From the NCBI GenBank assembly GCA_963783765.1, contig CAWAOV010000006.1, positions 402,136-434,135 on the forward strand: a stretch of 32,000 bases of DNA, read 5' to 3'. The translations under genes and the position numbers were made by a program. The DNA is from an uncultured Chloroflexia bacterium. Its GTDB lineage: Bacteria; Chloroflexota; Anaerolineae; Anaerolineales; UBA11858. Positions 3,342 through 23,275 of this stretch are shown here, one piece after another; position 1 is the stretch's first letter, and each line of letters opens with the position of its first letter. The notes under the pieces are model-generated. The model was not told the origin of the DNA, made no database searches, and was given only the letters and a program-made list of their open reading frames with translations.

Positions 3342-3755
3342 ATGGCAAGCTTGTCTCTAGAACTTCCTACGATGTACGGAGACCATCATGTACTCGAAGT
3401 CAGGCGCATATTGCTTGAATTTGAGGGTGTAACAGAAGTGTACGCCAGCTCAGGGTTTCATGTTGTTGAAGTGGAATACAACAGCAAAAAGACTCCCAAA
3501 AAAGACCTGGAAGCTGCACTTGAACAAGCAGGATATATGGGGGATTTCAAAATGGCCTTGGAACCATCTACACCGGCCAATGAAGACGTAAAAGGTGCAT
3601 ATTTCCGCCATACCGAGGCCAGCGAACAGACTGGGAATATAGTAAATTTTGAGCAGACAGTAAGAGTTCAACGCTCTCCCCTGTGGCCCTGCCCTGGTAT
3701 GGGGCCCGTAAAAACGCAAATTTTAGAAGTGGACGAGGAGACTGAAGATGGCTAA
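3342..3755 (+). CDS. Small HMA-like (ferredoxin-fold) protein lacking the CxxC motif, coupled to cooS
   Basis: The ORF opens at TTG 3315, but ATG 3342 follows AGGAGA (3331-3336). The 137-aa product has a beta-alpha-beta-beta-alpha-beta pattern like heavy-metal-associated domains, with MYGDHH where GMTCxxC normally sits. Its stop overlaps the cooS ATG by 8 nt. Confidence 0.6.
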   Translation: MASLSLELPTMYGDHHVLEVRRILLEFEGVTEVYASSGFHVVEVEYNSKKTPKKDLEAALEQAGYMGDFKMALEPSTPANEDVKGAYFRHTEASEQTGNIVNFEQTVRVQRSPLWPCPGMGPVKTQILEVDEETEDG

Positions 3756-5763: not shown

Positions 5764-5777
5764 AGGAGATAAGATAA

Positions 5778-9380: not shown

Positions 9381-9399
9381 ACAGTTGTCTGATATACCC

Positions 9400-9427
9400 G
9401 AGTTGAGCCTTTTTTAAGGCTCAACTC
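9400..9427 (+). other. Intra-operon stem-loop between acsB::acsD and acsC
   Basis: Perfect 10-bp stem GAGTTGAGCC / GGCTCAACTC with an 8-nt loop. There is no U-tract on either strand, so it is more likely an mRNA processing or stability element than a terminator. Confidence 0.4.
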
Positions 9428-9471
9428 AGCAAGCTTAAACGAAAAACAAATAAGAACAACGGAGAAAACGC

Positions 9472-10803
9472 ATGGCTCTAACCGGAATTCAAATTTACAA
9501 GCTGCTCCCTCAGACAAACTGTAAGGAATGTGATTTCCCTACCTGCCTGGCCTTTGCCATGAAATTGGCTGCCAAACAGGTTGAACTAGCTAAATGTCCT
9601 TATGTAAGTGAGGAATCAGCAGCACAACTGGCTGAGGCTGCTGCACCGCCAGTCCGTCCCATAACGATCAAATCAAATGGGCATGAAGTGAAAGGCGGAA
9701 ATGAAATTGTTATGTTCCGCCATAATAAAAGATTCTTCAGTCCCCCCGGGATTTTTGTCCGGGTTTATGACGATCAATCGGCCGATGATATCAAGGCCAA
9801 GGTTAAACCAGTCTCTGATTATGTAGTGGATTATGTTGGCATGGATCTGACAATGGGCGGGATCGCCATCCAGGCACGCGGAGGAGATTTTGGTGCCGCA
9901 GTGAAAGCTGTCCGAGAGGTCAGTACAATTCCCCTGATCCTGATTGCTCCTCCGGAGGTATTAAAGACCGGTTTGGAAAGCCTGGGCGCTGATGATATCC
10001 CGCTTTTATGCAGCGCGACTGCGGAGAATTGGGAAAAAATGGCCGCCCTGGCAAAGGAATATAATGCTCCCCTGGCAGTTGAAGCAGGCAATATCGACAC
10101 CATGGTCGATCTGGTGGAGAAGCTGGAAAGCAAAGACCTAAAGGATTTTGTGCTGTCACCTACACAAAGAACCCTGATTGGCACTTTAACCGCCAATACC
10201 ACCATACGGCGAATGGCTCTGAAGGAAAATTACCACCAGCTAGGTTTCCCGATCATCAACTTCCCGGGCGATGTGGGTGACCCTGCCCGCGAGCTGACTC
10301 TGGCAATGCAAGCCATTGGCAAATACAGCAGTTTTATTGTCATGGATACCTTTGATCCCGCCACCGCTTATTCACTATTGGTGCTGCGAGCAAATATCTA
10401 CACTGATCCCCAGGAACCCATTCAGGTCACTCCGGGAATTTACGAGATCAATAACCCTGGCCCCGAGGATCCTTTCCTGGTCACTACGAACTTCAGCATC
10501 ACTTACTTCAGTGTTGCCAATGAAGTGGAAAGCATGGGCATACCTGCCTGGCTTCTGGTAACAGACTCGGAAGGTATGAGCGTGCTCACAGCCTGGGCGG
10601 CTGGCAAATTTGATGCCGAAATCATCGCCAAGGACGCCAAGCGATTCAATGCGGCTGAAAAGGTGACCAAGAAACGCATTGTGCTGCCAGGTCATACGGC
10701 GGTATTGTCCGGTGAACTTGAGGAAGAACTTCCAGATTGGGAAGTAAAAGTCGGCCCCAAAGAGGCTGTTGACCTGCCCGCATTCATGAAAGAAGCACTA
10801 TAG
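9472..10803 (+). CDS. acsC: Corrinoid iron-sulfur protein large subunit
   Basis: 443-aa ORF. The N-terminal 4Fe-4S motif has C-x2-C-x4-C-x16-C spacing (CKECDFPTCLAFAMKLAAKQVELAKCP), followed by TIM-barrel and corrinoid-binding regions typical of AcsC/CdhE. Confidence 0.9.
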   Translation: MALTGIQIYKLLPQTNCKECDFPTCLAFAMKLAAKQVELAKCPYVSEESAAQLAEAAAPPVRPITIKSNGHEVKGGNEIVMFRHNKRFFSPPGIFVRVYDDQSADDIKAKVKPVSDYVVDYVGMDLTMGGIAIQARGGDFGAAVKAVREVSTIPLILIAPPEVLKTGLESLGADDIPLLCSATAENWEKMAALAKEYNAPLAVEAGNIDTMVDLVEKLESKDLKDFVLSPTQRTLIGTLTANTTIRRMALKENYHQLGFPIINFPGDVGDPARELTLAMQAIGKYSSFIVMDTFDPATAYSLLVLRANIYTDPQEPIQVTPGIYEINNPGPEDPFLVTTNFSITYFSVANEVESMGIPAWLLVTDSEGMSVLTAWAAGKFDAEIIAKDAKRFNAAEKVTKKRIVLPGHTAVLSGELEEELPDWEVKVGPKEAVDLPAFMKEAL

Positions 10804-10840
10804 GATTGCAGGTGAAAGCAGGTTGTGTTCTATAATAACA

Positions 10841-10884
10841 GGTAGGGTCGCCGTTCAATTATTGAATGGTCCCTACCTTTTATT
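10841..10884 (+). terminator. Terminator-like hairpin with U-tract after acsC
   Basis: GGTAGGG...CCCTACC outer stem with an inner TTCA/TGAA pairing, followed by TTTTATTATCTTT. Confidence 0.5.
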
Positions 10885-10909
10885 ATCTTTAATTGTTGGA
10901 TAGGGAAAG

Positions 10910-12832
10910 ATGGCAACCAATTATTCAGTAAAATTTGATATTGCCCAGGAACCGGTTGAAGTTCCGGCAGGAACCCTGTTATCGGATGCTGCCGAAAAAG
11001 CAGGCATAGAGATCAACCAACCGTGTGGAGGTCAGGGGCGTTGTGGGCAGTGTGCTGTTCAGGTGACATCTGGAAATGTGCGGCGCCGGTCTACGATGCG
11101 TTTGTCGGCAGAGGATGTTGAAGATGGCTACGCTATCGCCTGCCAGACAATTATAGAAGGGGATTTGACCGTTGTCGTCCCACCGCAAGAGAAGATCCAG
11201 CAGCGGTTGACCACGGGCCAGTCCGCGGCTGATGTCACAGTCCCGGAAGGTTATGACCATCGTAAGGACCAATCTGTCCACCGAATTCATGTCACATTAA
11301 AACAGCCCTCGATGGAAGATCAAACCAGTGACTGGGCTCGATTAAAGACTGCCTTACTTCTAGAGACTGGGTTGACGAATATATCGATCTCCCTGCCTAA
11401 TTTACAGAAACTACCGGGTGTGCTGCGGGATGGGGACTGGAAAGTATCCCCGGTTTTGTATGTGGAAGATGGAATGGAAGCAGGAGGTTTTGGTGAAGTG
11501 ATAGATCTGCTGCCGGGGTTGGTTTCCCCCGATACACCCCTCTGGGGAGCAGCAGTGGATATTGGCACCACCACAGTCAAAGTGATGCTGGTGGATCTGA
11601 TCAGTGGCGAGCCACAAGGCCAGGCAACTGAATATAATGCCCAGATCGCCCGGGGAGAGGATGTGATCTCCCGGATCATATTCGCTGGAAAAGGGGAGGG
11701 TGATAAAACCCTCCGGTCTCTGGTGTTGGAGACAATAAATGAGCTGCTTGAAAGGGCCTGCCAGAGAGGAAAATCATGCCCGGACAGGATCTACAAAACC
11801 ACCATCGCCGGAAACAGCACCATGACCCACCTTTTACTGCAGATACCTCCCTCAAGTATTCGGCTGGCGCCATTTATCACGGTAGCCAATCACCTACCAG
11901 TGATGACAGCCCTGGAATTGGGTTTAAGAACCCATCCGGAAGGTAAAGCGATCTGTCTGCCCGGGGTTGCCAGTTATGTAGGGTCGGATATATCAGCGGG
12001 CGTGTTGTCTTCTGGTATGTCAGAAACAGAAAAAGTCACCCTCTTCCTCGATGTGGGCACCAATGGAGAAATGGTCCTGGGATCAAAAGAATGGCTGGTT
12101 ACCTGCGCCTGTTCGGCGGGCCCGGCCTTTGAAGGTGCAGGAGTGCTGCATGGTATGCGGGCTACAACCGGTGCAATCGATGAGATCTGGATCAATGAAG
12201 AAACCAAAGAAGCATCCTGGCGGGTGATCGGGGAGGGGAAACCAAAAGGATTGTGCGGCAGTGCTTTGATCTCCCTGCTGGCTGAGTTATTAATGACCGG
12301 AGTGATCAACAAAAGCGGTCGATTTGACTTCTCTTTGGATTCGAAACGGGTTCGAAAAGGCTCCCACGGCGGTGAATATGTGGTCTGCTGGGCGGATGAA
12401 AATGAAATTAATGAAGATATCATCCTGACCGAAGTGGATATTGATAATTTGATGCGAGCAAAAGCAGCAATTTTCGCGGGGTTTTCAGTTTTGGGCGATA
12501 GCGTAGGAATTCCCCTGGAATCTGTTGAACAAGTCTTGATTGGCGGTGGTTTTGGCCAATATATCAACGTCGAAAAGGCAGTTCAAATAGGCTTGCTGCC
12601 AGATATGCCCTGGGAACGTTTTAAGTTCCTGGGAAATACTTCCCTCAAGGGAGCTTATCTAGCTTTGCTTTCCATAAAAAACCGGCAGGAGATATCGGAG
12701 ATCGCTAACCGGATGACCTATATTGAACTTTCTGCAGATAACCGCTTTTTTGACGCATTTACTTCAGCAATGTTTTTACCCCACACTGATATGACTCTCT
12801 TTCCATCTGTGAAGATCGGTGGGGATAAATAA
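10910..12832 (+). CDS. acsV: Reductive activator of the corrinoid Fe-S protein (RACo/AcsV): 2Fe-2S ferredoxin domain plus ASKHA ATPase
   Basis: 640-aa ORF with an N-terminal plant-type ferredoxin motif (CGGQGRCGQCAV...C) and ASKHA phosphate and adenosine motifs (VDIGTTTVKV, LDVGTNGEMVLG, IGGGFGQY). Confidence 0.85.
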   Translation: MATNYSVKFDIAQEPVEVPAGTLLSDAAEKAGIEINQPCGGQGRCGQCAVQVTSGNVRRRSTMRLSAEDVEDGYAIACQTIIEGDLTVVVPPQEKIQQRLTTGQSAADVTVPEGYDHRKDQSVHRIHVTLKQPSMEDQTSDWARLKTALLLETGLTNISISLPNLQKLPGVLRDGDWKVSPVLYVEDGMEAGGFGEVIDLLPGLVSPDTPLWGAAVDIGTTTVKVMLVDLISGEPQGQATEYNAQIARGEDVISRIIFAGKGEGDKTLRSLVLETINELLERACQRGKSCPDRIYKTTIAGNSTMTHLLLQIPPSSIRLAPFITVANHLPVMTALELGLRTHPEGKAICLPGVASYVGSDISAGVLSSGMSETEKVTLFLDVGTNGEMVLGSKEWLVTCACSAGPAFEGAGVLHGMRATTGAIDEIWINEETKEASWRVIGEGKPKGLCGSALISLLAELLMTGVINKSGRFDFSLDSKRVRKGSHGGEYVVCWADENEINEDIILTEVDIDNLMRAKAAIFAGFSVLGDSVGIPLESVEQVLIGGGFGQYINVEKAVQIGLLPDMPWERFKFLGNTSLKGAYLALLSIKNRQEISEIANRMTYIELSADNRFFDAFTSAMFLPHTDMTLFPSVKIGGDK

Positions 12833-12896
12833 AGCAGCACAGGAGTGAATTATAATAACCCTAGTAAAACCAAAAGAAGATTGAGGAGGCATTTGT

Positions 12897-13820
12897 ATGT
12901 ACATCATTGGAGAGAATATTCATATCATATCCCCGAGTGTCAAGAAGGCGCTGGCTGATCGTGATGCCGAATTCTTCAAAAAATCGGCGATTCAACAGGT
13001 TGAGATGGGTGCCAGCGCGGTTGACCTGAATCTGGGAAGACAGAAACACGAATGGGAAGAGATCTTTCCCTGGGTAACCAAAATCGTTCAGGATGTTGTT
13101 GACGTCCCGCTTTGCATTGACAGCACCAATTTGGCTGGCATTGAAGCTGCCCTGAAAGTGATCACCAAAGCCAGGCCTATTATCAACTCCACATCAGCGG
13201 AAGCCGAGCGGTTGGAGCAGGTTCCTCTGCTGGCAAAGAAATATGACGCCCAGCTGATCGCCCTGACCCTTAAGAAAGAAGGTATTCCTGTGGAAGCTGA
13301 TGAAAGGGTAAATATCGCCCTGGAATACTTGATCCCCAGAGCTATGGAAGTAGGCATGGAGATGCCAGATTTGATCATTGACCCCTTGGTTCTGACTGTC
13401 TCTGGATGCCAGGAATACTGTCCGGAATTGATCGAAGCCGTTCGGACAATTAAGTATGCCGGTGATCCTCCCCCCTCGATTTCGGTTGGTTTATCCAATG
13501 TGTCCAATGCTGTGCCGGAAGAAACCCGCCCGATCCTCAACCGGGTTTATCTGGCCATGTTAATGGGCGCCGGGTTGGAAATGATGATTGCTGACCCATT
13601 TGATGAAAAACAGAACGAAGTCATCCGCATCATCGAAGAGCGGGATGAAGGAACATCCCTGGGCAAACTTTATTTGAAATTACATGATGCCACCGAGGCG
13701 ATGGGCGAGATCACCAAGGCGGATATTGATGAAAGTGATCCCGAACAGGTCGCTGTCTGGAAGTCCGTTCAGGTGCTTCTGAATAAAGTGATTTACGCCG
13801 ATTCTTTCCTGGAACAATAA
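12897..13820 (+). CDS. acsE: Methyltetrahydrofolate:corrinoid/iron-sulfur protein methyltransferase
   Basis: 307-aa ORF with GAGGAGG SD. It is collinear with Moorella MeTr (IIGENI, LCIDSTN, INSTS, IDPLVL, GLSNVS, ADSF), with a roughly 40-aa insertion near the C-terminus. Confidence 0.85.
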   Translation: MYIIGENIHIISPSVKKALADRDAEFFKKSAIQQVEMGASAVDLNLGRQKHEWEEIFPWVTKIVQDVVDVPLCIDSTNLAGIEAALKVITKARPIINSTSAEAERLEQVPLLAKKYDAQLIALTLKKEGIPVEADERVNIALEYLIPRAMEVGMEMPDLIIDPLVLTVSGCQEYCPELIEAVRTIKYAGDPPPSISVGLSNVSNAVPEETRPILNRVYLAMLMGAGLEMMIADPFDEKQNEVIRIIEERDEGTSLGKLYLKLHDATEAMGEITKADIDESDPEQVAVWKSVQVLLNKVIYADSFLEQ

Positions 13821-14020: not shown

Positions 14021-15376
14021 ATGTCTGAGGAAAACATCAATATTGAAGAATTGCTGGAAAAAGCAAAAAAACCAGCAGCAGATGCGTTAAAACTACATCC
14101 CTTTTATAAGGGAAAGATGGAAACAACGTTGAAATGCACTGTGCGAAGTATCGATGATTTTGCAATCTGGTATACCCCGGGCGTTGCTGCACCCTGTCGG
14201 GATATTTATCAGGACCCCGAGATGGTTTATCAGCATACCAGCAAGGGAAATACCATTGCCGTGATCAGTGATGGAACACGGGTGCTTGGTCTTGGCGACA
14301 TCGGTCCCAAAGCTGGCCTTCCCGTGATGGAAGGCAAGGCCCTCCTGTTCAAATATCTGGGCGGTGTAGACGCAGTTCCGATCATGCTTGATACTAAAGA
14401 TCCTGATGTTTTTATTGAGACGGTTCTGCTGCTGCAGTCCTCTTTTGGAGGAATAAATTTAGAGGATATTGCCCAACCCAAATGTTTCCGAATCCTGGAT
14501 GAGCTGCGGGAGAAGTGTGAGATCCCCGTCTGGCACGATGATCAGCAGGGAACAGCAACTGTAACCCTGGCGGGATTGATGAACGCCTTGAAAGTTGTGG
14601 GAAAAAAGAAGGAGGAGATCCAGATCACCTTTATTGGTTCTGGCGCTTCCAATGTGGCGATTTCTCGCTTGATCTACAGCTGGGGTGTGGATCCGGGTAA
14701 GTGCTTCATGGTGGATAGCAAAGGTATCCTTGGCACCCATAGAGATGATATTAAATCAAAAAAGGATCAATTTAAGGAAAAGTGGCATTTGTGCCAGATC
14801 ACAAATAAAGAAGGCCGCCAGGGTGGAATTCCAGAAGCTATGAAAGGCGCGGATGTAGTGATAGCTCTCTCCAAACCCGGTCCTGATGTGATCAAACCAG
14901 AATGGGTTAAGTCCATGAATCCCGACGCGATCATTTTCAGCTGCGCCAATCCCATTCCCGAGATCTGGCCCTGGGTTGCAAAGGAAGCAGGTGCCAGGGT
15001 TGTTGCTACTGGACGGTCTGATTTCCCCAATCAGGTAAACAACTCACTGGGTTTCCCGGGAATTTTCAGGGGAGTACTGGATGTGAGAGCATCAACGATC
15101 ACAGATGAGATGTGTTTTGCAGCGGCTGAAGCCCTGGCTGACCAGATAGGCGATCAACTTGATGAAGAACATCTTCTGCCCACGATGGATGATTGGGAAG
15201 TGTTTGCTAAAGAAGCAGCGGCGGTAGGCATGAAAGCCCAGGAACAGGGTGTTGCCAAATTAGAGCGCACCTATGATGAGCTTCTGAAAAGCGCTACTGA
15301 AGTTATAAAACGATCCCGGGACCTGACATCCCTGATGGAGAAAAAAGGCTTCATTCCAGCCCCACCGGAAGATTAA
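14021..15376 (+). CDS. NAD(P)-dependent malic enzyme (oxaloacetate-decarboxylating malate dehydrogenase), short form
   Basis: 451-aa ORF. The N-terminus HPFYKGKMETTLKC...WYTPGVAAPC, the ISDGTRVLGLGDIG motif and the Rossmann segment FIGSGASNVA are typical of prokaryotic malic enzymes. Confidence 0.9.
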   Translation: MSEENINIEELLEKAKKPAADALKLHPFYKGKMETTLKCTVRSIDDFAIWYTPGVAAPCRDIYQDPEMVYQHTSKGNTIAVISDGTRVLGLGDIGPKAGLPVMEGKALLFKYLGGVDAVPIMLDTKDPDVFIETVLLLQSSFGGINLEDIAQPKCFRILDELREKCEIPVWHDDQQGTATVTLAGLMNALKVVGKKKEEIQITFIGSGASNVAISRLIYSWGVDPGKCFMVDSKGILGTHRDDIKSKKDQFKEKWHLCQITNKEGRQGGIPEAMKGADVVIALSKPGPDVIKPEWVKSMNPDAIIFSCANPIPEIWPWVAKEAGARVVATGRSDFPNQVNNSLGFPGIFRGVLDVRASTITDEMCFAAAEALADQIGDQLDEEHLLPTMDDWEVFAKEAAAVGMKAQEQGVAKLERTYDELLKSATEVIKRSRDLTSLMEKKGFIPAPPED

Positions 15377-15411
15377 ATAGTTCCTTCAACCTTAAATAAT
15401 AACTAAAAAAG

Positions 15412-15452
15412 ACCAGCGAGCAGTCCCTGTGAAAACAGAAACCCTCGCTGGT
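15412..15452. terminator. Hairpin after malic enzyme gene, with its better U-tract on the minus strand
   Basis: Perfect 9-bp stem ACCAGCGAG / CTCGCTGGT enclosing an inner CTGT-GAAA-ACAG hairpin. It is preceded by AAAAAAG (a U-run if read on the minus strand) and followed by ATGGTTTA. Confidence 0.5.
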
Positions 15453-15633
15453 ATGGTTTAAGGAGATAATATTTCCCTACTTCAGGATGATTTTAGGGGT
15501 TTGGGCCAGAATTGGGACTTGATTTTTAGCCAGTTGCAGTATACTGAATTGTACCTTAGTTTATCTTGGCCAATTACATGCCAGCTAATGATATCTTGTG
15601 TTAATATATTCTGGGGAGAAACATAATACGAAG

Positions 15634-15661
15634 TTGACAGGATTTGAAAGTTGTTTATAAT
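15634..15661 (+). promoter_or_regulatory. Near-consensus sigma-70-type promoter upstream of the dpp-like operon
   Basis: TTGACA (15634-15639), a 16-nt spacer, then TATAAT (15656-15661). The inverted repeat GGATTTG (15640-15646) / CAAATCC (15662-15668) brackets the -10. Confidence 0.5.
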
Positions 15662-15968
15662 CAAATCCCAAGCACGTTTTTTGAGTATAGATTCTCAGGG
15701 GGAAATTCCTAAAGGCAAATCTAATTGTGTATTAACCTTTAGGCGGTGCCAAGCGGGGAAAGGAATTAGGCACAGGTGATCAGAGAGAATTGACTAACTC
15801 GGACCGCACCATTAATTAATTTTTTATATTCCTTATATTTGTTCCCACCATTAACAGGGAACCTATTTGCATATAAATGCTATTAAGGAGGTGATGCCCG
15901 GAGACAATACACCTAGCATAACTCAGTACGCAATGCCCTATATCTAATTCTCAATAGGAGGAGAAACA

Positions 15969-16148
15969 GTGTCAAAGAAACTATTTTTTATTTTAATCTC
16001 TCTGCTCATGATCAGTTCCTTCGTTTTGGGCGCCTGCGCCCAGACTCCAGCCCCTGTCGAAGAGGTTGAGGAAGTCGAAGAAATGGAGGAAGTAGAAGAA
16101 GTAGGAAATGGCAGAAGAAGAGGAAATGGCAGAAGAAGTTATGGGTGA
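15969..16148 (+). other. Orphaned 5' part of the binding-protein gene: lipoprotein signal peptide plus acidic tether, out of frame with the body
   Basis: GTG 15969 follows AGGAGGAG. It encodes SKKLFFILISLLMISSFVLGAC (lipobox LGAC) and then EEVEEVEEMEEVEEV. After about 16104 the frame degenerates to GNGRRRGNGRRSYG-stop, while the acidic tether continues in the +1 frame. Confidence 0.65.
16103..16138 (+). repeat. Exact tandem duplication of an 18-nt unit
   Basis: AGGAAATGGCAGAAGAAG occurs at 16103-16120 and again at 16121-16138. It encodes EMAEEE/EMAEEV in the body frame. Confidence 0.9.
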
Positions 16149-17745
16149 AAAGATTCCCCTGACCCTTTACTACATGCCAGTAACCCGCTTCTATTATCCC
16201 AGTCCGAAAGAAATCGGCGAAGCTATGGCTGCCGATCTGGCGAATGCCGGATTTGACGTTCAGCTTGAACTGGCTGGCGACTGGCCCACCTACCTTGGTT
16301 TGCGCCGTGAGGGTAACCTCGATGGTCTCTACCAACTTGGTTGGGGTGGTGACAATGGTGACCCCGACAACTTCTTGAACTACTTCTTTGGATTTGCCGG
16401 TGCTGACAAGGTTGGAGACGATCCTTCAGCATGGGTAAAGAGCCCAGAAGCCCGGGAAGGTTGGTATGCCAATACTGATGTCGCCTACTTGCTCTATCAG
16501 GCGTCCATCACACCGGATCAGGCTGCAAGAGAGGCTATGTACAAGCAGGTCGAGAATCTACTTCACGATGATGTTGCCCGCCTCTGGGTAGCTCACAACA
16601 ATACTCCCCTGGTTTTCTCCAGTTTGGTCAGCGGTTATGTGCCGCAGCCTGTTGGAGCCGACTACTTTGAAGGTGTGACCGTTGAAGGTTCTGACACCTT
16701 TGTATTTGGTCGCGGCGGTGACTCCGTTCAGTTGGATCCCGCAGTTGTAACTGATGGTGAGAGCTTCCGTGTTACCGGACAGGTTCTGGAACCACTCTAT
16801 CAGTATGAACCGGGTTCCACCAAACCAATCCCCGCACTGGCTGAATCTTGCACCCCGAATGCAGAAAGCACTGAATGGGTATGTGCTCTTCGCCAAGGTG
16901 TGAAATTCCACGACGGAACAGACTTCAATGCTGCCGCAGTGGTCTTTAACTTTGAACGCCAGCGCTTTACGTCTCATCCCCAACACTATGAAAGCCAGGT
17001 GTATGAGTATTACGAATACATGTGGGGCGGCCTTGATGATGCGAGCATAATCACCTCAGTTGAAGCTATTGATGACTACACAGTGAAATTCGTGCTTGCA
17101 GAACCCCTGGCTCCGTTCTTGGCTAACTTGGCTATGGATATCTTTGCGATTTCCAGCCCAACAGCAATGGAAGCCGCTGGTGAAGACTATGGTCTTCCCT
17201 CCAATGGCGCAGTGGGAACAGGCCCCTTCAAGTTTGTGGAATGGGTAGAAGGCGATCACATCACAGTTGAAGCAAATGCCGACTACTGGGGTGGCGCGCC
17301 TGGTGTAGAGCAGATTGTGTTCAGAGTCATTGCTGATGACTCCGCTCGCTTCCTGGCTTTGCAGGCTGGCGATATCCAGGGTTTTGAACAGGCCGTGGTA
17401 GAAGATCTGGTCACTGCTGAAGCCGCTGATGACCTTTATGTTATGACCAGACCAGCCCTCAATACCGGCTATCTGGCCTTCAGCTACAAGATTGTTGAAT
17501 TCCAGGATGTCCGAGTTCGTGAGGCACTTGCCCACGCCATCAACCGTGAAGGATTAATCGAAAACTTCTACGGTGCCTATGGTGAAGCTGCAACCAACTT
17601 CCTGCCCCCGTTGATCTGGGGCCATGATAATACTATCGTGGATTGGGAATATGATCCTGAACTGTCACGCTCGTTGCTGGCAGAAGCTGGATTCCCTGAT
17701 GGACTCAGCGAAGTTACCATTGACCCCGCCTTTGTGACCGAGTAA
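16108..17745 (+). CDS. ABC transporter substrate-binding protein, family 5 (DppA/OppA-like), circularly permuted and lacking an in-frame signal peptide
   Basis: 545-aa ORF. Residues 15-193 match the C-terminal third of DppA-type proteins (GWGGDNGDPDNF ... YFEGVTVE). Residues 194-545 match the mature N-terminus through the middle (DSVQLDPA, LAESCTPNAESTEWVCALRQGVKFHDG, GTGPFKF, DPELSRSLLAEAGFPDG). Confidence 0.8.
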   Translation: MAEEEEMAEEVMGEKIPLTLYYMPVTRFYYPSPKEIGEAMAADLANAGFDVQLELAGDWPTYLGLRREGNLDGLYQLGWGGDNGDPDNFLNYFFGFAGADKVGDDPSAWVKSPEAREGWYANTDVAYLLYQASITPDQAAREAMYKQVENLLHDDVARLWVAHNNTPLVFSSLVSGYVPQPVGADYFEGVTVEGSDTFVFGRGGDSVQLDPAVVTDGESFRVTGQVLEPLYQYEPGSTKPIPALAESCTPNAESTEWVCALRQGVKFHDGTDFNAAAVVFNFERQRFTSHPQHYESQVYEYYEYMWGGLDDASIITSVEAIDDYTVKFVLAEPLAPFLANLAMDIFAISSPTAMEAAGEDYGLPSNGAVGTGPFKFVEWVEGDHITVEANADYWGGAPGVEQIVFRVIADDSARFLALQAGDIQGFEQAVVEDLVTAEAADDLYVMTRPALNTGYLAFSYKIVEFQDVRVREALAHAINREGLIENFYGAYGEAATNFLPPLIWGHDNTIVDWEYDPELSRSLLAEAGFPDGLSEVTIDPAFVTE

Positions 17746-17804
17746 CCATCTTAGGAAATAGAAATTCCTGAAAGTAAAAGGTTAGGTCAATCTGTTGTAA
17801 AAAA

Positions 17805-17836
17805 AGGAGGGGCGTTAACCCGCCCCTCCTTTCTGT
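17805..17836 (+). terminator. Attenuator-type hairpin between binding-protein and permease genes
   Basis: Perfect 10-bp GC-rich stem AGGAGGGGCG / CGCCCCTCCT with a 6-nt loop, followed by TTCTGT (a weak U-tract). Confidence 0.5.
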
Positions 17837-17858
17837 AAGGAATTATTGGAGGTCTTCT

Positions 17859-18911
17859 TTGACTCGCTATATTATTCGACGAATAATCTCTGTGATCCCC
17901 ACTTTAATTGGGGTCACCTTTGTAATCTTCATGTTCCAGCGCTTGATCCCTGGAGATCCGGCAATTGCTATGCTGGGGGAGCATGCGACCGATGAGAGCA
18001 TCGAACGGATCCAAGAGCAATTGGGTCTCAATCGCCCTCCGTTCCTGGATCGGGAAGCACTGGCGGAAGGAGACCTGGCTGGTTTTTTTGACAGTCAATA
18101 CATTAATTACATGGCTCGTCTCAGCCGGTTAGATCTGGGAGATTCAATTCACCGGCGGATCCCTGTGCTGGAAACACTAAAATTGAGATTCCCGGCAACG
18201 GTTGAGCTATCGTTACTTTCCATGATCATCGCCGTAATGGTAGGTATACCGGTAGGAATAATTTCCGCTTCCCGCAGGAACTCCCTGATTGACAGCGTCG
18301 CCATGGTGAGTTCTCTTGTGGGAGTTTCAATGCCCATATTTTGGCTGGGATTAATGGAAATCATGCTCTTTGCTGTGTTCTTAAAATGGCTTCCTGCTGG
18401 TGCTCGATTAAGTACCGGGTTTGAAATACAGGGAATCACTAATTTATACTTGGTTGATAGTCTAATAACTGGCAATTGGGCAGGATTTAAAGATGCTCTG
18501 TCTCATATTATTATGCCCGCAGTGGCCCTGGCAACCATTCCAATGGGGATTATTGCTAGAATGACGCGCTCCAGCATGTTAGATGTGCTCCAGGAGGATT
18601 ACATCCGAACTGCCAGGGCAAAAGGATTGGGAGGAAGAAAGGTGCTGTTTAGGCATGCCCTTAAGAATGCCGCCTTACCGGTAGTCACAATCGTTGGTCT
18701 CCAGGCAGGCACATTATTGGCAGGAGCTGTCTTAACCGAAACAATATTTTCCTGGCCTGGGATTGGCCGTTGGGTTTATGATGCCATTCTTGGCCGGGAT
18801 TACCCCATCGTGCAGGGTGGCACCTTGTTAATTGCGCTGATATTTGTTGGTGTAAATTTGATTGTAGATATTTTATATGCACTGCTGGATCCAAGGATCC
18901 GGTATAAATAA
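17859..18911 (+). CDS. Peptide/nickel-family ABC transporter permease (DppB/OppB-like)
   Basis: 350-aa ORF with a TTG start 6 nt after GGAGG. The N-terminus is typical (YIIRRIISVIPTLIGVTFVIF), and the C-terminal half carries an EAA-like region (YIRTARAKGL). Confidence 0.9.
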   Translation: MTRYIIRRIISVIPTLIGVTFVIFMFQRLIPGDPAIAMLGEHATDESIERIQEQLGLNRPPFLDREALAEGDLAGFFDSQYINYMARLSRLDLGDSIHRRIPVLETLKLRFPATVELSLLSMIIAVMVGIPVGIISASRRNSLIDSVAMVSSLVGVSMPIFWLGLMEIMLFAVFLKWLPAGARLSTGFEIQGITNLYLVDSLITGNWAGFKDALSHIIMPAVALATIPMGIIARMTRSSMLDVLQEDYIRTARAKGLGGRKVLFRHALKNAALPVVTIVGLQAGTLLAGAVLTETIFSWPGIGRWVYDAILGRDYPIVQGGTLLIALIFVGVNLIVDILYALLDPRIRYK

Positions 18912-18920
18912 GGAAGCTTT

Positions 18921-20150
18921 ATGGCACAGATCAATCCGGAAGAGTTTATAGTAACTGATTTTGCGGTTCGGGAACATCGCTCCTTATGGGGTGATGCCTG
19001 GCGGCGGTTGATATCCAGCAATACAGCCCGATTGGGGATGTTTATTGTGGTCCTTTTTGTATTCTCGGCAACTTTTTCGCATTATTTTTGGAAGTATGAA
19101 CCCAAAAAAGACCTGGACTATTCCTTAAAACTCAAAGCGCCCAACCTGGTGGTGACAGAAGAAATCCCCTCTATCCATCCCTTTGGAACTGATAAATTGG
19201 GACGGGATATCTTTCGAAGAGTTATTCATGGCGGCTGGAATTCCTTACGGGTTGGTATTGTGGCTGTCGGGATCTCGTTATTATTTGGAGGGGTAATTGG
19301 TTTGCTGACCGGTTTTTATGAATCCACTACCATGACAACAGTGGAGCGGATTGTGTTATACGGCATAACGGGTTTCTTGCTGGGTATGTTGGCTGCCTGG
19401 ATTGCGAACCAGTTTCTCCAACTGGTTATTTTTACTGTCTTAGGTTTATTGGCTGGTTATTTCGAAGGATTGTGGGCAGGAAAATATTACCGGGTGTTAT
19501 TTTTTGGAGTCCTGGGAGCCCTGCTCAGTTTTGGACTTGCTCTGTTTGTTGGACTGTCTGTCGCGCTAATTTGCGGTTCACTGGGTTTGTTAGCAGGATT
19601 GCTGTTATCCGTGACTTTGGATGGAAGGTTTTTCTCGAATGTAATGATGCGAGTGATGGATATGATTTTATCCTTCCCTGGTTATTTATTGGCAATCGCC
19701 ATTGTTGCCTTTTTAGGACCTGGCCTTAGTAAGGGTATGATTGCCATCGGTGTTGTTGGAATACCGGTTTATGCCCGACTAACCCGATCAGCGGTCTTAT
19801 CTGTGGTGAATAAGGAGTACATCCTGGCAGCCCATTCCGTGGGAGAATCCCATGGCCGGATCATCTTCAGGCATATCACCCCCAATATTCTTTCCCCGAT
19901 TATTGTACAAACGACCATGGGATTGGCAAATGCGATCCTGTCCGCGGCAGCTCTTGGTTTCCTGGGATTGGGCGCCATTCCACCGGAACCAGAATGGGGA
20001 GCTATGTTGGGTGATAGCTACCGATATTTAACCAGCGGTGCCTGGTGGGCGGTTTTATTCCCCGGCCTGGCAATTATGCTGAGTGTGCTGGGCTTTAATT
20101 TACTGGGAGATGGCCTCCGCGATGCGCTAGATCCTAAACTGCGGACGTAG
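18921..20150 (+). CDS. Peptide/nickel-family ABC transporter permease (DppC/OppC-like) with ~100-aa hydrophobic insertion
   Basis: 409-aa ORF. The flanks are collinear with DppC (HPFGTDKLGRD...GLLTGFY // MMRVMDMILSFP...LGDGLRDALDPKLR). An extra segment spans aa 134-234. Confidence 0.9.
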   Translation: MAQINPEEFIVTDFAVREHRSLWGDAWRRLISSNTARLGMFIVVLFVFSATFSHYFWKYEPKKDLDYSLKLKAPNLVVTEEIPSIHPFGTDKLGRDIFRRVIHGGWNSLRVGIVAVGISLLFGGVIGLLTGFYESTTMTTVERIVLYGITGFLLGMLAAWIANQFLQLVIFTVLGLLAGYFEGLWAGKYYRVLFFGVLGALLSFGLALFVGLSVALICGSLGLLAGLLLSVTLDGRFFSNVMMRVMDMILSFPGYLLAIAIVAFLGPGLSKGMIAIGVVGIPVYARLTRSAVLSVVNKEYILAAHSVGESHGRIIFRHITPNILSPIIVQTTMGLANAILSAAALGFLGLGAIPPEPEWGAMLGDSYRYLTSGAWWAVLFPGLAIMLSVLGFNLLGDGLRDALDPKLRT

Positions 20151-20160
20151 GAAAAATGAT

Positions 20161-21156
20161 ATGAAACCATTATTAGAGATTAAAAGCTTAAAAACCCGAT
20201 TCTATACCCAGGACGGCGTTGTTAAAGCGGTAAACGATGTATCCTATTCCATGAATAGTGGTGAGATCCTTGGCGTGGTTGGAGAAAGTGGTTGTGGCAA
20301 AAGCGTTCATGCCCTTTCCATGATGCAGCTGATCCCGGATCCTCCTGGAAAGATCACCCAGGGAGAAGTCTGGCTGGACGGGCAGGATCTGCTTACACTA
20401 TCAGAAGAGGAGATGCAAGAAGTCCGCGGCCGAGATATTGCCATGATCTTCCAGGACCCGATGACCTCATTGAACCCAGTTTTTACGGTTGGGTTTCAGA
20501 TCATCGAGGCAATCCAGCTTCACACTGATATGACTCACGATGAAGCGAAACACCGGGCAGGAGAGCTGCTGGAATTGGTGGGTATTCCAGGTTCAAAAGA
20601 CCGCCTTGATGATTATCCACATCAATTCTCTGGCGGCATGCGACAGCGAGCAATGATAGCAATGGGATTGTCCTGTGAGCCAAAACTTTTGATAGCAGAC
20701 GAACCTACCACAGCGCTGGATGTCACCATCCAGGCCCAGATCATTGACCTGGTTAATAAACTTCAGGTTGAATTGGGTATGGCAATCATGTGGATCACCC
20801 ATGACCTGGGGGTGGTGGCAGAACTTGCCCATAACATCAATGTGATGTATGCTGGTTCTATCATCGAAACCGGAAAAATCCGTAATATATATAAAAATAC
20901 AAGGCATCCTTATACAATAGGTTTGCTGGGATCACTGCCGAGGCTCAATGATGCCCCGGGGACCGAGTTGATGTCGATTCCAGGGCTGCCGCCAGATTTG
21001 CTTGCCCTTCCGGGAGGCTGTCCTTTTGCGGCCCGCTGTGAATATCGGGTTGAGCAGTGCGTGGTAGAGAATCCACCGCTGGTAGAAATTGATGGACCAG
21101 ATCATTCTGCCGCTTGTTGGCGATGGGAAGAGATAGCAGGGATAGAGTCAAAATGA
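20161..21156 (+). CDS. ABC transporter ATP-binding protein (DppD/OppD-like)
   Basis: 331-aa ORF with Walker A GESGCGKS, signature FSGGMRQR, Walker [13 protein letters not shown], and the C-terminal oligopeptide-type Cys-containing extension. Confidence 0.9.
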
Positions 21157-22136
21157 AAGCTGAGAATAAAAAACTACTCGAAATTAAAAATTTAAAGAAA
21201 TACTTCTCGGGTTCAGAAGGGCAGTTATTTAAATCCAGCAATGATGTGAAAGCGGTTGATGATGTCAGTTTTGATATTTATCAGAAGGAAACGCTGGGAT
21301 TGGTGGGTGAAACCGGCTGCGGTAAAACAACAGTAGGTCGAACTATGCTGCATTTATATAAACCGACCGGGGGAAAAATCCTGTTTGACGGAGTTGATTT
21401 AAACTCCCTTGGAGAAAGGGATCTACGCCGTCAGCGCAGTAAAATGCAGATGATCTTCCAGGATCCCTATGCGTCCCTAAACCCGCGCATGACGGTTGGG
21501 TCTATTGTAGGATCTCCCCTGGATGTGCACACAAAACAGAGCAGAAAAGATAAACAGGATCGTGTGCAGGATTTATTGGATATTGTTGGATTAAATCCGG
21601 ATTTTGTCAACCGCTATCCCCATGAATTCTCTGGAGGCCAGCGGCAAAGAATCGGCATAGCCCGGGCCCTGGCACTGAATCCCGAATTTGTGGTATGTGA
21701 TGAACCTATCTCCTCATTGGATGTATCTATCCAGGCCCAGGTCGTAAATTTACTGGAAGATCTGCAAAAAAAATTAGGTCTGACCTACCTGTTTATCGCG
21801 CACGATTTGAGTATGGTCCGCCATATTAGTGACCGTATGGCTGTCATGTACCTGGGAAAAATTATGGAATTAGCAGATCGGGATGAGATCTTTTTGAATT
21901 CTCTTCATCCCTATACTCAGGCCTTGATGTCTGCTGTGCCAATTCCTGATCCAGATTTAGCCGAGGAAAAAGAGCGGATCATCTTGGATGGAGATATTCC
22001 CAATCCTGCCAATCCGCCAGTGGGCTGTAATTTTAATACTCGTTGTCCAGTAGCCACCGATATTTGTTTTAAAGAAGAGCCAGAATATCTGGAAGTAAAA
22101 GATAAACACTGGGTAGCATGCCACTTGGTGAAATAA
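21153..22136 (+). CDS. ABC transporter ATP-binding protein (DppF/OppF-like)
   Basis: ATG 21153 overlaps the upstream stop (ATGA). Walker A GETGCGKT, signature FSGGQRQR, Walker [12 protein letters not shown]. The longer ORF from 21114 would overlap dppD by 43 nt. Confidence 0.9.
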
Positions 22137-22209: not shown

Positions 22210-22246
22210 TCACGTTAGAGAAGAAGTTAATGTGGAGCTAGATATT

Positions 22247-23275
22247 ATGGACTTTGGCCCTAGGCTTTCCTGCGAGGTTTTCACCCTGAAATTGCATCAC
22301 CCTTTTCGACTCTCAACAGGAGTAAGTACAACACGGACAGCTCATTGGATCCGGCTTGAGGACGATCAGGGCTGGGGGGAGGGCACAATACCTCCTTACT
22401 ACAATATCAGTGATCATGATATGCAGGCGTTGTGGGAGGGAAAATCTCACAGTAAGGAACCCTTTCCGGATGATCCCGGTGAGATATCTAGCTGGGTTGG
22501 GGAGGATGGTCCTGCGCCAGCAAGGGCGGCATTGGATTTGGCCCTGCATGACAGGATTGGTAAAAACCGCTCGCTTCCTCTTTATCAACTTTTAAATCTA
22601 CCGGCTCCAATTCCTTTTTCAACAGCTTTCACAATTGCGATATCAGAACCCGAAGAAATGGCACAAATGGCGCTGGACCATCCGGAGTTCCCGCTGATTA
22701 AGCTAAAACTTGGCAGTGAGGACGATATCAGCCGAGTGGCCGCAGTTCGAAAAGCCAGGCCTGATGTGAGATTGTTCGTTGATGCAAACGCTGCCTGGGA
22801 ACCAGATGAGGCTGTCCGCATGATCAAGGAGATAACTCCGTTTGGGATCGAAATGGTCGAACAGCCTGTCGGCGGAGATGATATTGATGGGCTGGGACAT
22901 GTGCAAAGCCATACTACAATCCCGATCGTTGCAGATGAATCCTTGACTTCATTGTCATCACTTGAGGAATTGGCTAAAAACGGAGTGCAGGGTATCAACC
23001 TGAAACTTATGAAGCTCGGAGGATTGGGACCAACTCTTAAACTTCTCCACCGGGGCCGTGAACTGGGTTTCAGGATCATGCTGGGGTGCATGACGGAAAC
23101 TTCCCTTGGAGTGACAGCTATGTCTCACTTGGCTGCCTTTGCAGAGTGGCATGACCTGGATGCGCCTTTGCTGATCAAAAATGATCCCTTTGAGGGTGTT
23201 CAGTATGACCAGGTGCGTGTATCTTTGCCGGATCGGCCGGGAATTGGTATTATAAGGAGGGTCAATCCAAGTTGA
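22247..23275 (+). CDS. Enolase-superfamily dipeptide epimerase (L-Ala-D/L-Glu epimerase-like)
   Basis: The ORF opens at GTG 22232, but ATG 22247 has GGAG 9 nt upstream. It carries the MR/MLE-subgroup motifs: KxK (LIKLKLG), metal ligands (VDANAAW, VEQP, VADES) and a second catalytic Lys (NLKLMKLGG). Confidence 0.75.
   Translation: MDFGPRLSCEVFTLKLHHPFRLSTGVSTTRTAHWIRLEDDQGWGEGTIPPYYNISDHDMQALWEGKSHSKEPFPDDPGEISSWVGEDGPAPARAALDLALHDRIGKNRSLPLYQLLNLPAPIPFSTAFTIAISEPEEMAQMALDHPEFPLIKLKLGSEDDISRVAAVRKARPDVRLFVDANAAWEPDEAVRMIKEITPFGIEMVEQPVGGDDIDGLGHVQSHTTIPIVADESLTSLSSLEELAKNGVQGINLKLMKLGGLGPTLKLLHRGRELGFRIMLGCMTETSLGVTAMSHLAAFAEWHDLDAPLLIKNDPFEGVQYDQVRVSLPDRPGIGIIRRVNPS

What the first reader, a model, noticed from the sequence alone, without database searches (positions are those of the whole stretch)
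16108..17745. Circularly permuted family-5 (DppA/OppA-type) substrate-binding protein
After the acidic tether, residues about 15-193 read IPLTLYYMPVTRFYYPSPKEIGEAMAADLANAGFDVQLE ... LGWGGDNGDPDNFLNYFF ... MYKQVENLLHDDVARLWVAHNN ... GYVPQPVGADYFEGVTVE. Block for block, this matches what is normally the C-terminal third of these proteins. The E. coli DppA equivalent is FSIDLWAMPVQRPYNPNARRMAEMIQADWAKVGVQ ... MGWTGDNGDPDNFF ... LYKQAQVVMHDQAPALIIAHST ... GYVVDPLGKHHFENVSIE-stop. With no linker, residue 194 (nt 16687) restarts with the normal mature N-terminus and family signature: GSDTFVFGRGGDSVQLDPA ... PALAESCTPNAESTEWVCALRQGVKFHDGTDFNAAAVVFNFER ... GTGPFKF. The ORF stops at WEYDPELSRSLLAEAGFPDGLSEVTIDPAFVTE, which is where a normal protein would continue into the block that comes first here. 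The order is therefore [C-terminal third]-[N-terminal two thirds] in one frame. This is the product expected from tandem duplication and fusion followed by truncation at both ends. The new termini lie inside a lobe and the old termini are joined directly. I am not aware of a described permuted cluster-C binding protein. The downstream permeases and ATPases are intact, so the system may still be in use.
Basis: partly seen in the sequence, partly recalled or inferred. Interest (0 to 1): 0.75.

Follow-up and report, generated by a model that had tools for sequence, protein, structure and literature searches.

The report
Circularly permuted dipeptide-type binding lipoprotein
The gene encodes a DppA-like nutrient-binding protein whose last third has been moved in front of its first two thirds; this rearranged form is conserved and under selection in a clade of uncultured Anaerolineales, and close relatives at the same locus have flipped back to the normal order.

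Summary
ORF 16108-17745 matches Pfam SBP_bac_5 in swapped order. Residues 18-193 align to E. coli DppA 374-535 and residues 196-534 to DppA 29-373, so the chain is cut exactly at DppA 373|374.

This is not a misassembly. About 54 protein clusters from many independent assemblies keep the same order at 77-93% identity, in the same operon (malic enzyme, SBP, dppBCDF, racemase), with dN/dS of 0.03-0.08. With a deepened alignment AlphaFold2 folds it confidently (pLDDT 90.6), including the old-termini junction. The dipeptide-clamping residues DppA R383 and D436 are kept as R27 and D82.

- The true start is GTG 15969, a lipoprotein signal peptide. In this window it is out of frame with the ORF because of an indel in the GAA-rich tether, which is either an assembly error or a very recent lesion.
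- Two contigs at the same locus carry the normal order yet nest inside the permuted clade (99/100 bootstraps) and carry junction scars. This points to a secondary re-permutation.
- Family-5 proteins with other cut points, and tandem SBP5-SBP5 fusions, are common in metagenomes.

I found no paper describing a permuted cluster-C binding protein. The only natural precedent found is TpMglB-2, in cluster B.

The parts
15956..15962 (+). Shine-Dalgarno-like AGGAGGA, 6 nt upstream of the GTG start
   Evidence: Read directly from the sequence. Conserved in L001, L002 and L005.
15969..16037 (+). Lipoprotein signal peptide VSKKLFFILISLLMISSFVLGAC, with lipobox LGAC and Cys23 at 16035-16037. It is in a different frame from the main ORF in this window.
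   Evidence: The same peptide heads the intact orthologues (P0014, P0024 and others).
16038..16149 (+). Acidic Glu/Val/Ala-rich tether. A frame-breaking indel lies near 16100-16107 (GTAGGAAATG). Frame 0 stops at TGA 16146-16148. Frame 1 opens after TAG 16102-16104.
   Evidence: Three-frame translation and alignment with L001, L002 and L005.
16150..16686 (+). Block C (K15-E193): equivalent to DppA 374-535, the second half of the C-lobe plus the final N-lobe strands. Contains R27 and D82, which align to DppA R383 and D436.
16687..17721 (+). Block N (G194-I538): equivalent to mature DppA 29-373, covering the N-lobe, domain II and the first half of the C-lobe. Begins with the family motif TFVFGRGGDSVQLDP.
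17722..17745 (+). New C-terminal tail DPAFVTE plus stop. It is a remnant of the first half of the ancestral hairpin loop.
   Evidence: Comparison of tails and loops.
17859..18911 (+). DppB-like permease
   Evidence: NCBIfam NF008161, 355 bits, below the equivalog cut-off. Pfam BPD_transp_1 in orthologues.
18921..20150 (+). DppC-like permease (409 aa, with about 100 extra N-proximal residues)
20161..21156 (+). DppD/OppD-like ATPase
21153..22136 (+). DppF/OppF-like ATPase. Its ATG at 21153 overlaps the dppD stop as ATGA.
22232..23275 (+). Enolase-superfamily racemase/epimerase. Best matches are the DgcA and L-Ala-D/L-Glu epimerase models, both below their cut-offs. Conserved directly downstream of the transporter.

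Best explanation
The locus encodes a genuine, evolutionarily fixed circular permutant of a DppA-like (family 5, cluster C) substrate-binding lipoprotein, serving the adjacent DppBCDF-type ABC importer.

How the chain runs (the order along the sequence is shown; its assignment to lobes is inferred from the DppA alignment and recalled domain boundaries):
- A lipobox cysteine and an acidic tether come first.
- The chain enters the fold in the middle of the C-lobe, at what is a surface hairpin loop in normal-order relatives (DppA 373|374).
- It crosses the hinge into the last N-lobe strands and continues through at most three linking residues into the old N-terminus.
- It builds the N-lobe and domain II, crosses the hinge again, and ends in the first half of the C-lobe.

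Both old termini lie in one lobe and both new termini in the other, so the number of hinge crossings is unchanged. The Venus-flytrap mechanism should therefore work as in DppA. The only architectural change is that the membrane tether attaches to the C-lobe instead of the N-lobe (inferred).

The order arose by an in-place swap of two adjacent gene blocks between a fixed signal-peptide/tether and a fixed 3' end. The most likely route is tandem duplication of the mature region followed by two in-frame deletions (inferred). One sublineage later swapped the blocks back.

The substrate is probably a dipeptide. The conserved racemase next door hints at a dipeptide containing a D-amino acid (inferred).

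The copy in this window is separated from its signal peptide by an indel in the low-complexity tether. I think an assembly error is more likely than a real, very recent inactivation.
For: Swapped, gap-free tiling of Pfam SBP_bac_5 and of E. coli DppA.

Conservation:
- About 54 of the top 120 clusters are collinear with the permuted order at 77-93% identity. They come from NCBI, ENA, JGI and Logan assemblies, on contigs of up to about 1 Mb.
- Three GTDB species representatives carry it.
- Synteny is identical across contigs: CODH/ACS, malic enzyme, SBP, dppBCDF, MR_MLE.
- dN/dS is 0.03-0.08 with dS of 0.9-2.3.

Structure and binding site:
- AF2 with alignment A2 gives mean pLDDT 90.6 and pTM 0.87, with 86-98 across the junction. 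The first and last elements are strands, as expected for a cut hairpin.
- Best Foldseek matches are GbpA, DppA and HbpA.
- R27 and D82 align to DppA R383 and D436 and are invariant in 34 permuted sequences. Those DppA residues bind the dipeptide termini, and the double mutant loses binding (PMC12136057).

In-place block swap and reversion:
- blastn of L006 and L007 against the window shows collinear flanks and exchanged blocks.
- The normal-order proteins P0023 and P0028 nest inside the permuted clade (94 and 99 of 100 bootstraps; 0 of 100 place them outside).
- They carry EGSS-TFVFG, a short IAPDT loop and a TE* end as scars.

Possible intermediates: tandem SBP5 fusions exist (P0244, P0258, P0271, P0368, P0356).
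Against: - No experimental structure or binding data exist for any member.
- The first AF2 run, with only close homologues, was poor (pLDDT 54).
- No permutation-aware superposition could be run. Foldseek aligned only about 365 columns.
- This window's copy has no in-frame signal peptide. As assembled it would not be exported.
- No duplication intermediate (N-C-N-C or C-N-C) was found within this clade.
- The NCBIfam DppA equivalog score is far below its cut-off (273 against 1005 bits), so dipeptide specificity is not established.
- P0053, P0062 and P0068 do not group with the main permuted clade (3 of 100), so a single origin is not settled.
Confidence: 0.85

Rival explanations
1. This particular copy is a pseudogene. 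A real frameshift in the tether uncouples the binding domain from its signal peptide, so the protein is not exported, even though the permuted family as a whole is functional.
For: The signal peptide and the ORF are in different frames, with TAG at 16102-16104 and TGA at 16146-16148. The exact 545-aa product is not on record elsewhere.
Against: This is the only lesion. The remaining 1.6 kb is intact and as constrained as its orthologues (dN/dS 0.05-0.08 against L001, L008 and L009). The transporter genes downstream are intact. The indel lies in a GAA-rich low-complexity stretch, where assemblies often err. A related long contig (L005) is riddled with such frameshifts.
Confidence: 0.3
2. Misassembly, or a chimeric join of two gene fragments.
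For: None beyond the unusual order.
Against: The same three junctions recur in about 54 clusters from independent projects and assemblers, on contigs of up to 1.05 Mb, 321 kb and 223 kb, and in three GTDB representatives. Sequences have diverged (dS about 1-2) while the order is preserved.
Confidence: 0.01
3. The normal-order genes at this locus (P0023 and P0028) are the ancestral state rather than revertants, and the permuted order arose several times independently from such ancestors.
For: P0053, P0062 and P0068 are permuted but branch apart from the main permuted clade in NJ trees. The junction could in principle be re-created from similar termini.
Against: P0023 and P0028 nest deep inside the clade: 99 of 100 bootstraps with the young subclade, 0 of 100 outside. 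They are 94% identical to P0001 in the N block, whereas P0001 is 79-83% identical in that block to the older permuted lineages sampled, P0044 and P0049. dS to L009 exceeds dS to the window. Their EGSS prefix matches the permuted junction VEGSD. Their loop is a 5-residue scar, not the 21-residue hairpin of the outgroup. The tails of older permuted lineages (DPNITPAE) resemble the long loop (AEDITDAE), not the short one.
Confidence: 0.1
4. The permutation is adaptive: moving the lipid tether from the N-lobe to the C-lobe changes how the tethered protein docks on DppBC. The alternative is that it is a neutral topological variant.
For: A similar idea was raised for the tethered, permuted TpMglB-2 (PMC4990184). 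Relatives in this group are often built into multi-SBP fusion lipoproteins, where the attachment point could matter.
Against: Normal-order relatives are equally tethered lipoproteins. The order flipped back in one sublineage with no visible change of context. That fits near-neutrality better.
Confidence: 0.25

Closest known systems
E. coli DppA and relatives (GbpA, HbpA, H. pylori DppA); Pfam SBP_bac_5, structural cluster C
   Same: - Homologous over the whole mature length: DppA 29-535 is fully covered, at about 30-33% identity in Foldseek alignments.
- The dipeptide-clamping Arg and Asp are the same.
- The operon partners DppBCDF are the same.
- The predicted fold elements match.
   Different: - The order of the chain is permuted at DppA 373|374.
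- It is a lipoprotein with a long acidic tether attached to the C-lobe.
- It scores far below the DppA equivalog cut-off.
- Its specificity is untested.
TpMglB-2 (Tp0684) of Treponema pallidum, proposed 'Type Ic / Cluster Bc' (PMC4990184)
   Same: A naturally circularly permuted ABC-transporter ligand-binding lipoprotein that still binds its ligand. The permuted topology is shared by a family of homologues.
   Different: - It belongs to a different structural cluster (B, sugar-binding) with no sequence relationship.
- Its permutation adds a fourth hinge crossover, and its permuted segment shows little sequence similarity to canonical MglB.
- Here the crossover count is unchanged, and the permuted and canonical forms are 72-96% identical block for block.
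Normal-order Anaerolineae paralogues and orthologues (P0054-P0120; P0023 and P0028)
   Same: 72-96% identical within each block. They have the same lipoprotein signal and tether architecture. P0023 and P0028 also sit at the same locus.
   Different: - The block order is N-C.
- A 21-residue hairpin loop (AEDxxDAEGNVxYxAGD) occupies the site where the permuted proteins have their termini.
- P0023 and P0028 have a 5-residue scar there instead.
Second permuted family-5 group (L058 ORF 5116-7506; P0121-P0125, P0127 and others)
   Same: Also circularly permuted family-5 binding proteins, followed by a DppB-like permease. The named members are from Chloroflexota (Anaerolineae, Thermoflexales).
   Different: - The cut point is different: Pfam profile 68-366 comes first, then 1-58.
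- The group is much more diverse (50-98% identity).
- It is often fused behind an SBP_bac_3 domain.
- It is only about 40% identical to the window protein.

Membership tests
Pfam SBP_bac_5 (PF00496) / cluster C substrate-binding proteins | Significant match to the family HMM above the gathering score | tested here: met
   296.3 bits against a cut-off of 32.4.
Pfam SBP_bac_5 (PF00496) / cluster C substrate-binding proteins | Collinear match to the model, in canonical N-to-C order | tested here: not met
   Residues 29-97 match profile 297-364 and residues 239-534 match profile 1-283. The controls P0023 and P0055 are collinear.
Pfam SBP_bac_5 (PF00496) / cluster C substrate-binding proteins | Bilobed cluster-C fold | tested here: inconclusive
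   The AF2 model is confident (pLDDT 90.6, pTM 0.87) and its best structural matches are DppA, GbpA and HbpA. Only a sequential aligner was available, so just about 365 columns (TMq about 0.5) were superposed. There is no experimental structure.
Pfam SBP_bac_5 (PF00496) / cluster C substrate-binding proteins | Encoded next to OppBC/DppBC-type permeases and two OppDF/DppDF-type ATPases | tested here: met
Pfam SBP_bac_5 (PF00496) / cluster C substrate-binding proteins | Export signal (signal peptide or lipobox) | tested here: inconclusive
   Present at 15969-16037 but out of frame in this window. In frame in orthologues.
DppA dipeptide-binding protein (NCBIfam NF043070 equivalog) | Score above the equivalog cut-off | tested here: not met
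   273 bits against a cut-off of 1005.
DppA dipeptide-binding protein (NCBIfam NF043070 equivalog) | Arg and Asp that bind the dipeptide carboxyl and amino termini (DppA R383 and D436) | tested here: met
   They align to R27 and D82, which are invariant in A1. Their role is taken from PMC12136057.
DppA dipeptide-binding protein (NCBIfam NF043070 equivalog) | Binds dipeptides | not testable with these tools
   Needs ITC or DSF on purified protein.
Circular permutant (general definition) | Two segments that together cover the whole homologous domain, in swapped order, in one polypeptide | tested here: met
   DppA 374-535 followed by DppA 29-373, with no gap or overlap. One continuous ORF in all members.
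Circular permutant (general definition) | Old termini covalently joined, with new termini at a former internal site | tested here: met
   Junction ...YFEGVTVE-GS-DTFVFG. The new termini fall in the former hairpin loop between LSEVTI and KIPLTLYY.
Circular permutant (general definition) | Same three-dimensional fold as the non-permuted homologue | tested here: inconclusive
   The confident AF2 model includes the junction. A permutation-aware superposition was not available.
TpMglB-2-like 'Cluster Bc' permuted binding proteins | Homology to MglB-type cluster B sugar-binding proteins | tested here: not met
   All sequence and structure matches are to family 5 / cluster C.

The most novel reading that the evidence does not exclude
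Cluster-C (family 5) binding proteins form an undescribed, topologically plastic group.
- Circular permutation has been fixed repeatedly, at six or more different cut points, in Chloroflexota, a Planctomycetota MAG and a methanogen-related archaeon.
- Tandem SBP5-SBP5 fusions serve as the raw material.
- At one orthologous Anaerolineales locus the order went canonical, then permuted, then canonical again, leaving scars.

This would give a natural series of 80-95% identical proteins that differ mainly in chain topology.
Probability: 0.6. Interest if true: 0.8.

Novelty: new variant of a known kind. Interest (0 to 1): 0.72.

Why it matters
- Natural circular permutants are usually known only from distant pairs. 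Here the permuted, ancestral-order and apparently reverted forms are 72-96% identical block for block, sit in the same operon, and carry readable junction scars. The route and the cost of permutation can therefore be tested directly.
- The family gives nature-validated cut sites in the large cluster-C scaffold, which is useful for biosensor engineering.
- It moves the lipid tether to the other lobe. This gives a handle on whether the tether position matters for docking on the permease.
- It affects annotation. Collinear HMM thresholds fail, and some members are deposited as 'hypothetical protein' (P0003, P0205).

Tried and rejected
- Exact look-up of the 545-aa window product found nothing.
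- The first AF2 run, with 34 close permuted sequences, gave pLDDT 54 and was discarded as uninformative. Adding block fragments of normal-order relatives at 34-51% identity fixed this.
- Foldseek against afdb50 was unavailable.
- Midpoint-rooted NJ trees were misleading. I replaced them with outgroup rooting and bootstrap split tests.
- I looked for duplication intermediates (C-N-C or N-C-N-C) among the 120 closest clusters and found none. All long relatives are fusions with other SBP families.
- A programmed frameshift in the tether was considered and rejected. Orthologues have a plain continuous ORF, and the site is an ordinary GAA-rich repeat.
- A split protein (two polypeptides) was rejected. 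No member has a stop or a start at the junction.
- Literature searches combining circular permutation with OppA, DppA, substrate-, solute- or periplasmic-binding protein returned only engineered sensors and TpMglB-2.
Full report
**1. Observation**

The 545-aa ORF at 16108-17745 is present as described. Pfam SBP_bac_5 matches it at 296 bits, but in two stretches. When the halves are scanned separately, residues 1-193 match profile positions 297-364 and residues 194-545 match positions 1-283. Two close relatives (P0023, P0055) match positions 1-364 collinearly.

Against PDB sequences, residues 196-534 align to E. coli DppA precursor residues 29-373, and residues 18-193 align to DppA 374-535, the last residue. 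The two pieces tile DppA with no gap or overlap. This is a textbook circular permutation with the cut at DppA 373|374. The old C-terminus runs into the old N-terminus at residue 193|194 (nt 16686|16687)...YFEGVTVE|GSDTFVFGRGGD.

**2. The true 5' end, and a lesion in this copy**

ATG 16108 is simply the first start after a TAG at 16102-16104. Upstream there is AGGAGGA at 15956-15962, then GTG 15969. It opens a classic lipoprotein signal peptide (VSKKLFFILISLLMISSFVLGAC) followed by a Glu/Val-rich tether. This stretch is in another frame and stops at TGA 16146-16148.

Orthologues carry the same signal peptide and tether in one uninterrupted ORF of 576-593 aa. The window therefore has a 1-nt insertion or 2-nt deletion near 16100-16107, inside a GAA-rich repeat.

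The rest of the gene is intact and as constrained as its orthologues. I judge an assembly or sequencing error more likely (about 0.7) than a real, very recent inactivation (about 0.3). One related 1.05-Mb contig (L005) shows many such frameshifts.

**3. Not an artefact: a conserved clade**

- Of the 120 best protein clusters, about 54 are collinear with the permuted order over q12-545 at 77-93% identity. They come from NCBI, ENA, JGI and Logan assemblies, including contigs of 1.05 Mb, 321 kb and 223 kb. Those that carry a name are Anaerolineales or Chloroflexota MAGs.
- Three GTDB species representatives (L008, L009, L010) have the permuted order.
- Gene order is conserved across contigs: CODH/ACS genes, RACo, pterin-binding protein, malic enzyme, the SBP, DppB, DppC, DppD, DppF, then an enolase-superfamily racemase. 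The window is collinear with L001 and L002 at 83% nucleotide identity.
- Nei-Gojobori dN/dS between permuted orthologues is 0.03-0.08 with dS of 0.9-2.3, in both blocks.

The permuted gene has therefore been maintained by purifying selection for a long time.

**4. Anatomy of the cut**

Normal-order relatives at 72-81% identity per block (P0054-P0120) read ...AGFPDGLSEVTI-AEDxxDAEGNVxYxAGD-KIPLTLYYMPV... That is a 21-residue surface hairpin between two strands.

Permuted proteins end ...LSEVTI-DPAFVTE* or -DPNITPAE*, which resembles the first half of that loop (AEDITDAE). They begin, after the tether, ...G(E/D)K-IPLTLYYMPV, which is the end of the loop. The chain was therefore opened in the middle of that hairpin.

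The old termini are joined through at most three residues (VE-G[SA][DN]-TF). From recalled DppA domain boundaries (not checked here), both old termini belong to the N-lobe and the new ones to the C-lobe. If so, the number of hinge crossings stays at two. TpMglB-2, by contrast, needed an extra crossover (PMC4990184).

**5. Does it fold and bind?**

AF2 with only close homologues was poor (pLDDT 54). After I added block fragments of normal-order relatives at 34-51% identity (A2), the model reached mean pLDDT 90.6 and pTM 0.87. The 10-residue blocks spanning the junction score 86-98, and the first (15-22) and last (535-538) elements are strands, as expected for a cut hairpin.

Foldseek's best PDB matches are GbpA (3m8u), H. 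pylori DppA (6ofq) and E. coli DppA (1dpe, 1dpp). Every listed match aligns only about 355-400 columns (TMq 0.42-0.54). That is what a sequential aligner gives for a permutant, and it suggests that no solved structure has this topology. A permutation-aware superposition could not be run.

DppA R383 and D436 form the salt bridges to the dipeptide carboxyl and amino groups, and the double mutant loses binding (PMC12136057). They align to R27 and D82, which are invariant in 34 permuted sequences.

The best NCBIfam model is DppA, but far below the equivalog cut-off (273 against 1005 bits). The partners are DppB/C/D/F-like. The conserved neighbour at 22232-23275 resembles DgcA and L-Ala-D/L-Glu epimerases, also below cut-off. 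A dipeptide substrate, possibly one containing a D-amino acid, is a reasonable inference and no more than that.

**6. How it arose, and an apparent reversion**

Contigs L006 and L007 come from two different projects and encode P0023 and P0028, 563-aa proteins in the normal order. They lie in the same locus, with malic enzyme upstream and DppB downstream.

blastn shows collinear flanks and exchanged blocks:

| L006 | Window | Segment | Identity |
|---|---|---|---|
| 3-1186 | 14870-16069 | left flank | 77% |
| 1184-2229 | 16683-17728 | N block | 83% |
| 2234-2761 | 16149-16676 | C block | 86% |
| 2769-2926 | 17737-17895 | right flank | 93% |

The two blocks were therefore swapped in place, between a fixed signal peptide and tether and a fixed ...TE-stop plus downstream DNA.

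P0023 and P0028 do not look ancestral:
- They are 94% identical to permuted P0001 in the N block, and 94% identical to the window protein in the C block, against 72-81% to other normal-order proteins.
- They fall inside the permuted clade in 94 of 100 bootstraps. They fall inside its young subclade, excluding the older permuted lineages, in 99 of 100. They are never placed outside.
- dS gives the same nesting.
- They carry scars: the N-terminus EGSS-TFVFG copies the permuted junction VEGSD-TFVFG; the loop is a 5-residue IAPDT rather than the 21-residue hairpin; and the end is ...GVVI-TE*.

The most parsimonious reading is canonical, then permuted, then canonical again. The mechanism is inferred: tandem duplication of the mature region with two in-frame deletions, or equivalently excision as a circle and reinsertion. 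No intermediate was found in this clade.

P0053, P0062 and P0068 are permuted with the same type of junction but different tails, and they do not group with the main clade (3 of 100). Whether there was one origin or several is open.

**7. The phenomenon is wider than this locus**

- A GTDB locus from another Anaerolineae MAG (L058) encodes a 796-aa lipoprotein: an SBP_bac_3 domain followed by a family-5 domain in a different permutation, Pfam profile 68-366 then 1-58. Fifty-one of its 120 best clusters share that order at 50-98% identity, either stand-alone or fused.
- I searched all 50%-identity cluster representatives with the window protein and mapped 148 of the top hits onto a normal-order reference. 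Twenty-six are permuted, with cut points near reference positions 155, 204, 285-303, 333, 358-384 (the window's site) and 467.
- The named members among these include a Planctomycetota MAG and a Candidatus Methanofastidiosia archaeon. Two of them have C-terminal membrane anchors.
- The same search found proteins with two to four tandem SBP5 copies (P0244, P0258, P0271, P0368, P0356). These are the classical precursors of permutation by duplication.

These are single gene predictions per representative, apart from the two well-populated groups. The census is indicative and not curated.

**8. Comparison with what is known, and novelty**

The protein is a family-5, cluster-C binding protein by homology and context, but it fails the collinearity that every described member shows.

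The only natural permuted ABC binding protein I found in the literature is TpMglB-2, from cluster B, proposed as 'Type Ic / Cluster Bc' (PMC4990184). Searches pairing circular permutation with OppA or DppA returned nothing relevant.

I classify the finding as a new variant of a known kind. I cannot exclude a description in journals outside the searchable library.

**9. Verdict**

Four things add to the value of the finding: the conserved clade under selection, the orthologous locus that has both orders with scars, the additional cut points, and the tandem fusions. The caveat for this window is the frame break between the signal peptide and the binding domain.

Noticed in passing
L058:5116-7506 (+); relatives P0121-P0125, P0127 and others: A second, different circular permutation of a family-5 binding domain: Pfam profile 68-366, then 1-58. 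It is often fused behind an SBP_bac_3 domain in one lipoprotein. Fifty-one of the top 120 clusters share this order at 50-98% identity.
   Followed up: partly
Proteins P0251, P0269, P0335, P0360, P0351, P0262, P0293, P0321, P0349, P0377, P0381: Further permuted family-5 proteins with other cut points (about reference positions 204, 285-303, 333 and 467) or with the window's cut site at only 33-37% identity. They include a Planctomycetota MAG and a Ca. Methanofastidiosia archaeon. Two (P0269, P0293) end in a C-terminal membrane anchor.
   Followed up: partly
Proteins P0244 (1202 aa), P0258 (2754 aa), P0271 (1398 aa), P0368 (1016 aa), P0356 (1228 aa), P0262 (3461 aa): Giant proteins with two to four tandem family-5 binding domains. 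These are possible raw material for permutation by duplication.
   Followed up: no
Relatives P0054, P0067, P0070, P0076, P0079, P0093, P0110 and others; P0032 and P0048: Many close normal-order relatives are fusions of another binding protein (SBP_bac_3, Bmp/PF02608, Peripla_BP_4) with the family-5 domain, at 830-911 aa. P0032 and P0048 show the permuted domain fused behind another binding protein through the same acidic tether.
   Followed up: no
window 16100-16107: A frame-breaking indel in the GAA-rich tether separates the lipoprotein signal peptide (15969-16037) from the binding-domain ORF.
   Followed up: partly
window 3748-13820: A CODH/acetyl-CoA synthase gene set lies upstream, with CdhC/ACS, CdhD, RACo activator and a pterin-binding methyltransferase, followed by a malic enzyme at 14021-15376. 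The annotation is by synteny with L001, L002 and L005. It suggests a Wood-Ljungdahl-capable Anaerolineales genome.
   Followed up: no
window 18921-20150: The DppC-like permease is 409 aa, about 100 residues longer than E. coli DppC. The match to the DppC model is split, with its best stretch at residues 205-408.
   Followed up: no
window 22232-23275: An enolase-superfamily racemase/epimerase (DgcA-like or L-Ala-D/L-Glu epimerase-like, below the cut-offs) is conserved immediately downstream of the transporter in all related contigs. It is a possible clue to a peptide substrate containing a D-amino acid.
   Followed up: partly
L005 (ERZ25039508 contig_23304, 1.05 Mb): This related long contig has many genes broken into fragments, including RACo, malic enzyme, dppB and CoaE. 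The pattern is typical of uncorrected long-read indels. Its permuted SBP also lacks the signal peptide for that reason.
   Followed up: no
L037:6001-9197: Two normal-order family-5 SBP genes lie in tandem in a Ca. Poribacteria MAG.
   Followed up: no
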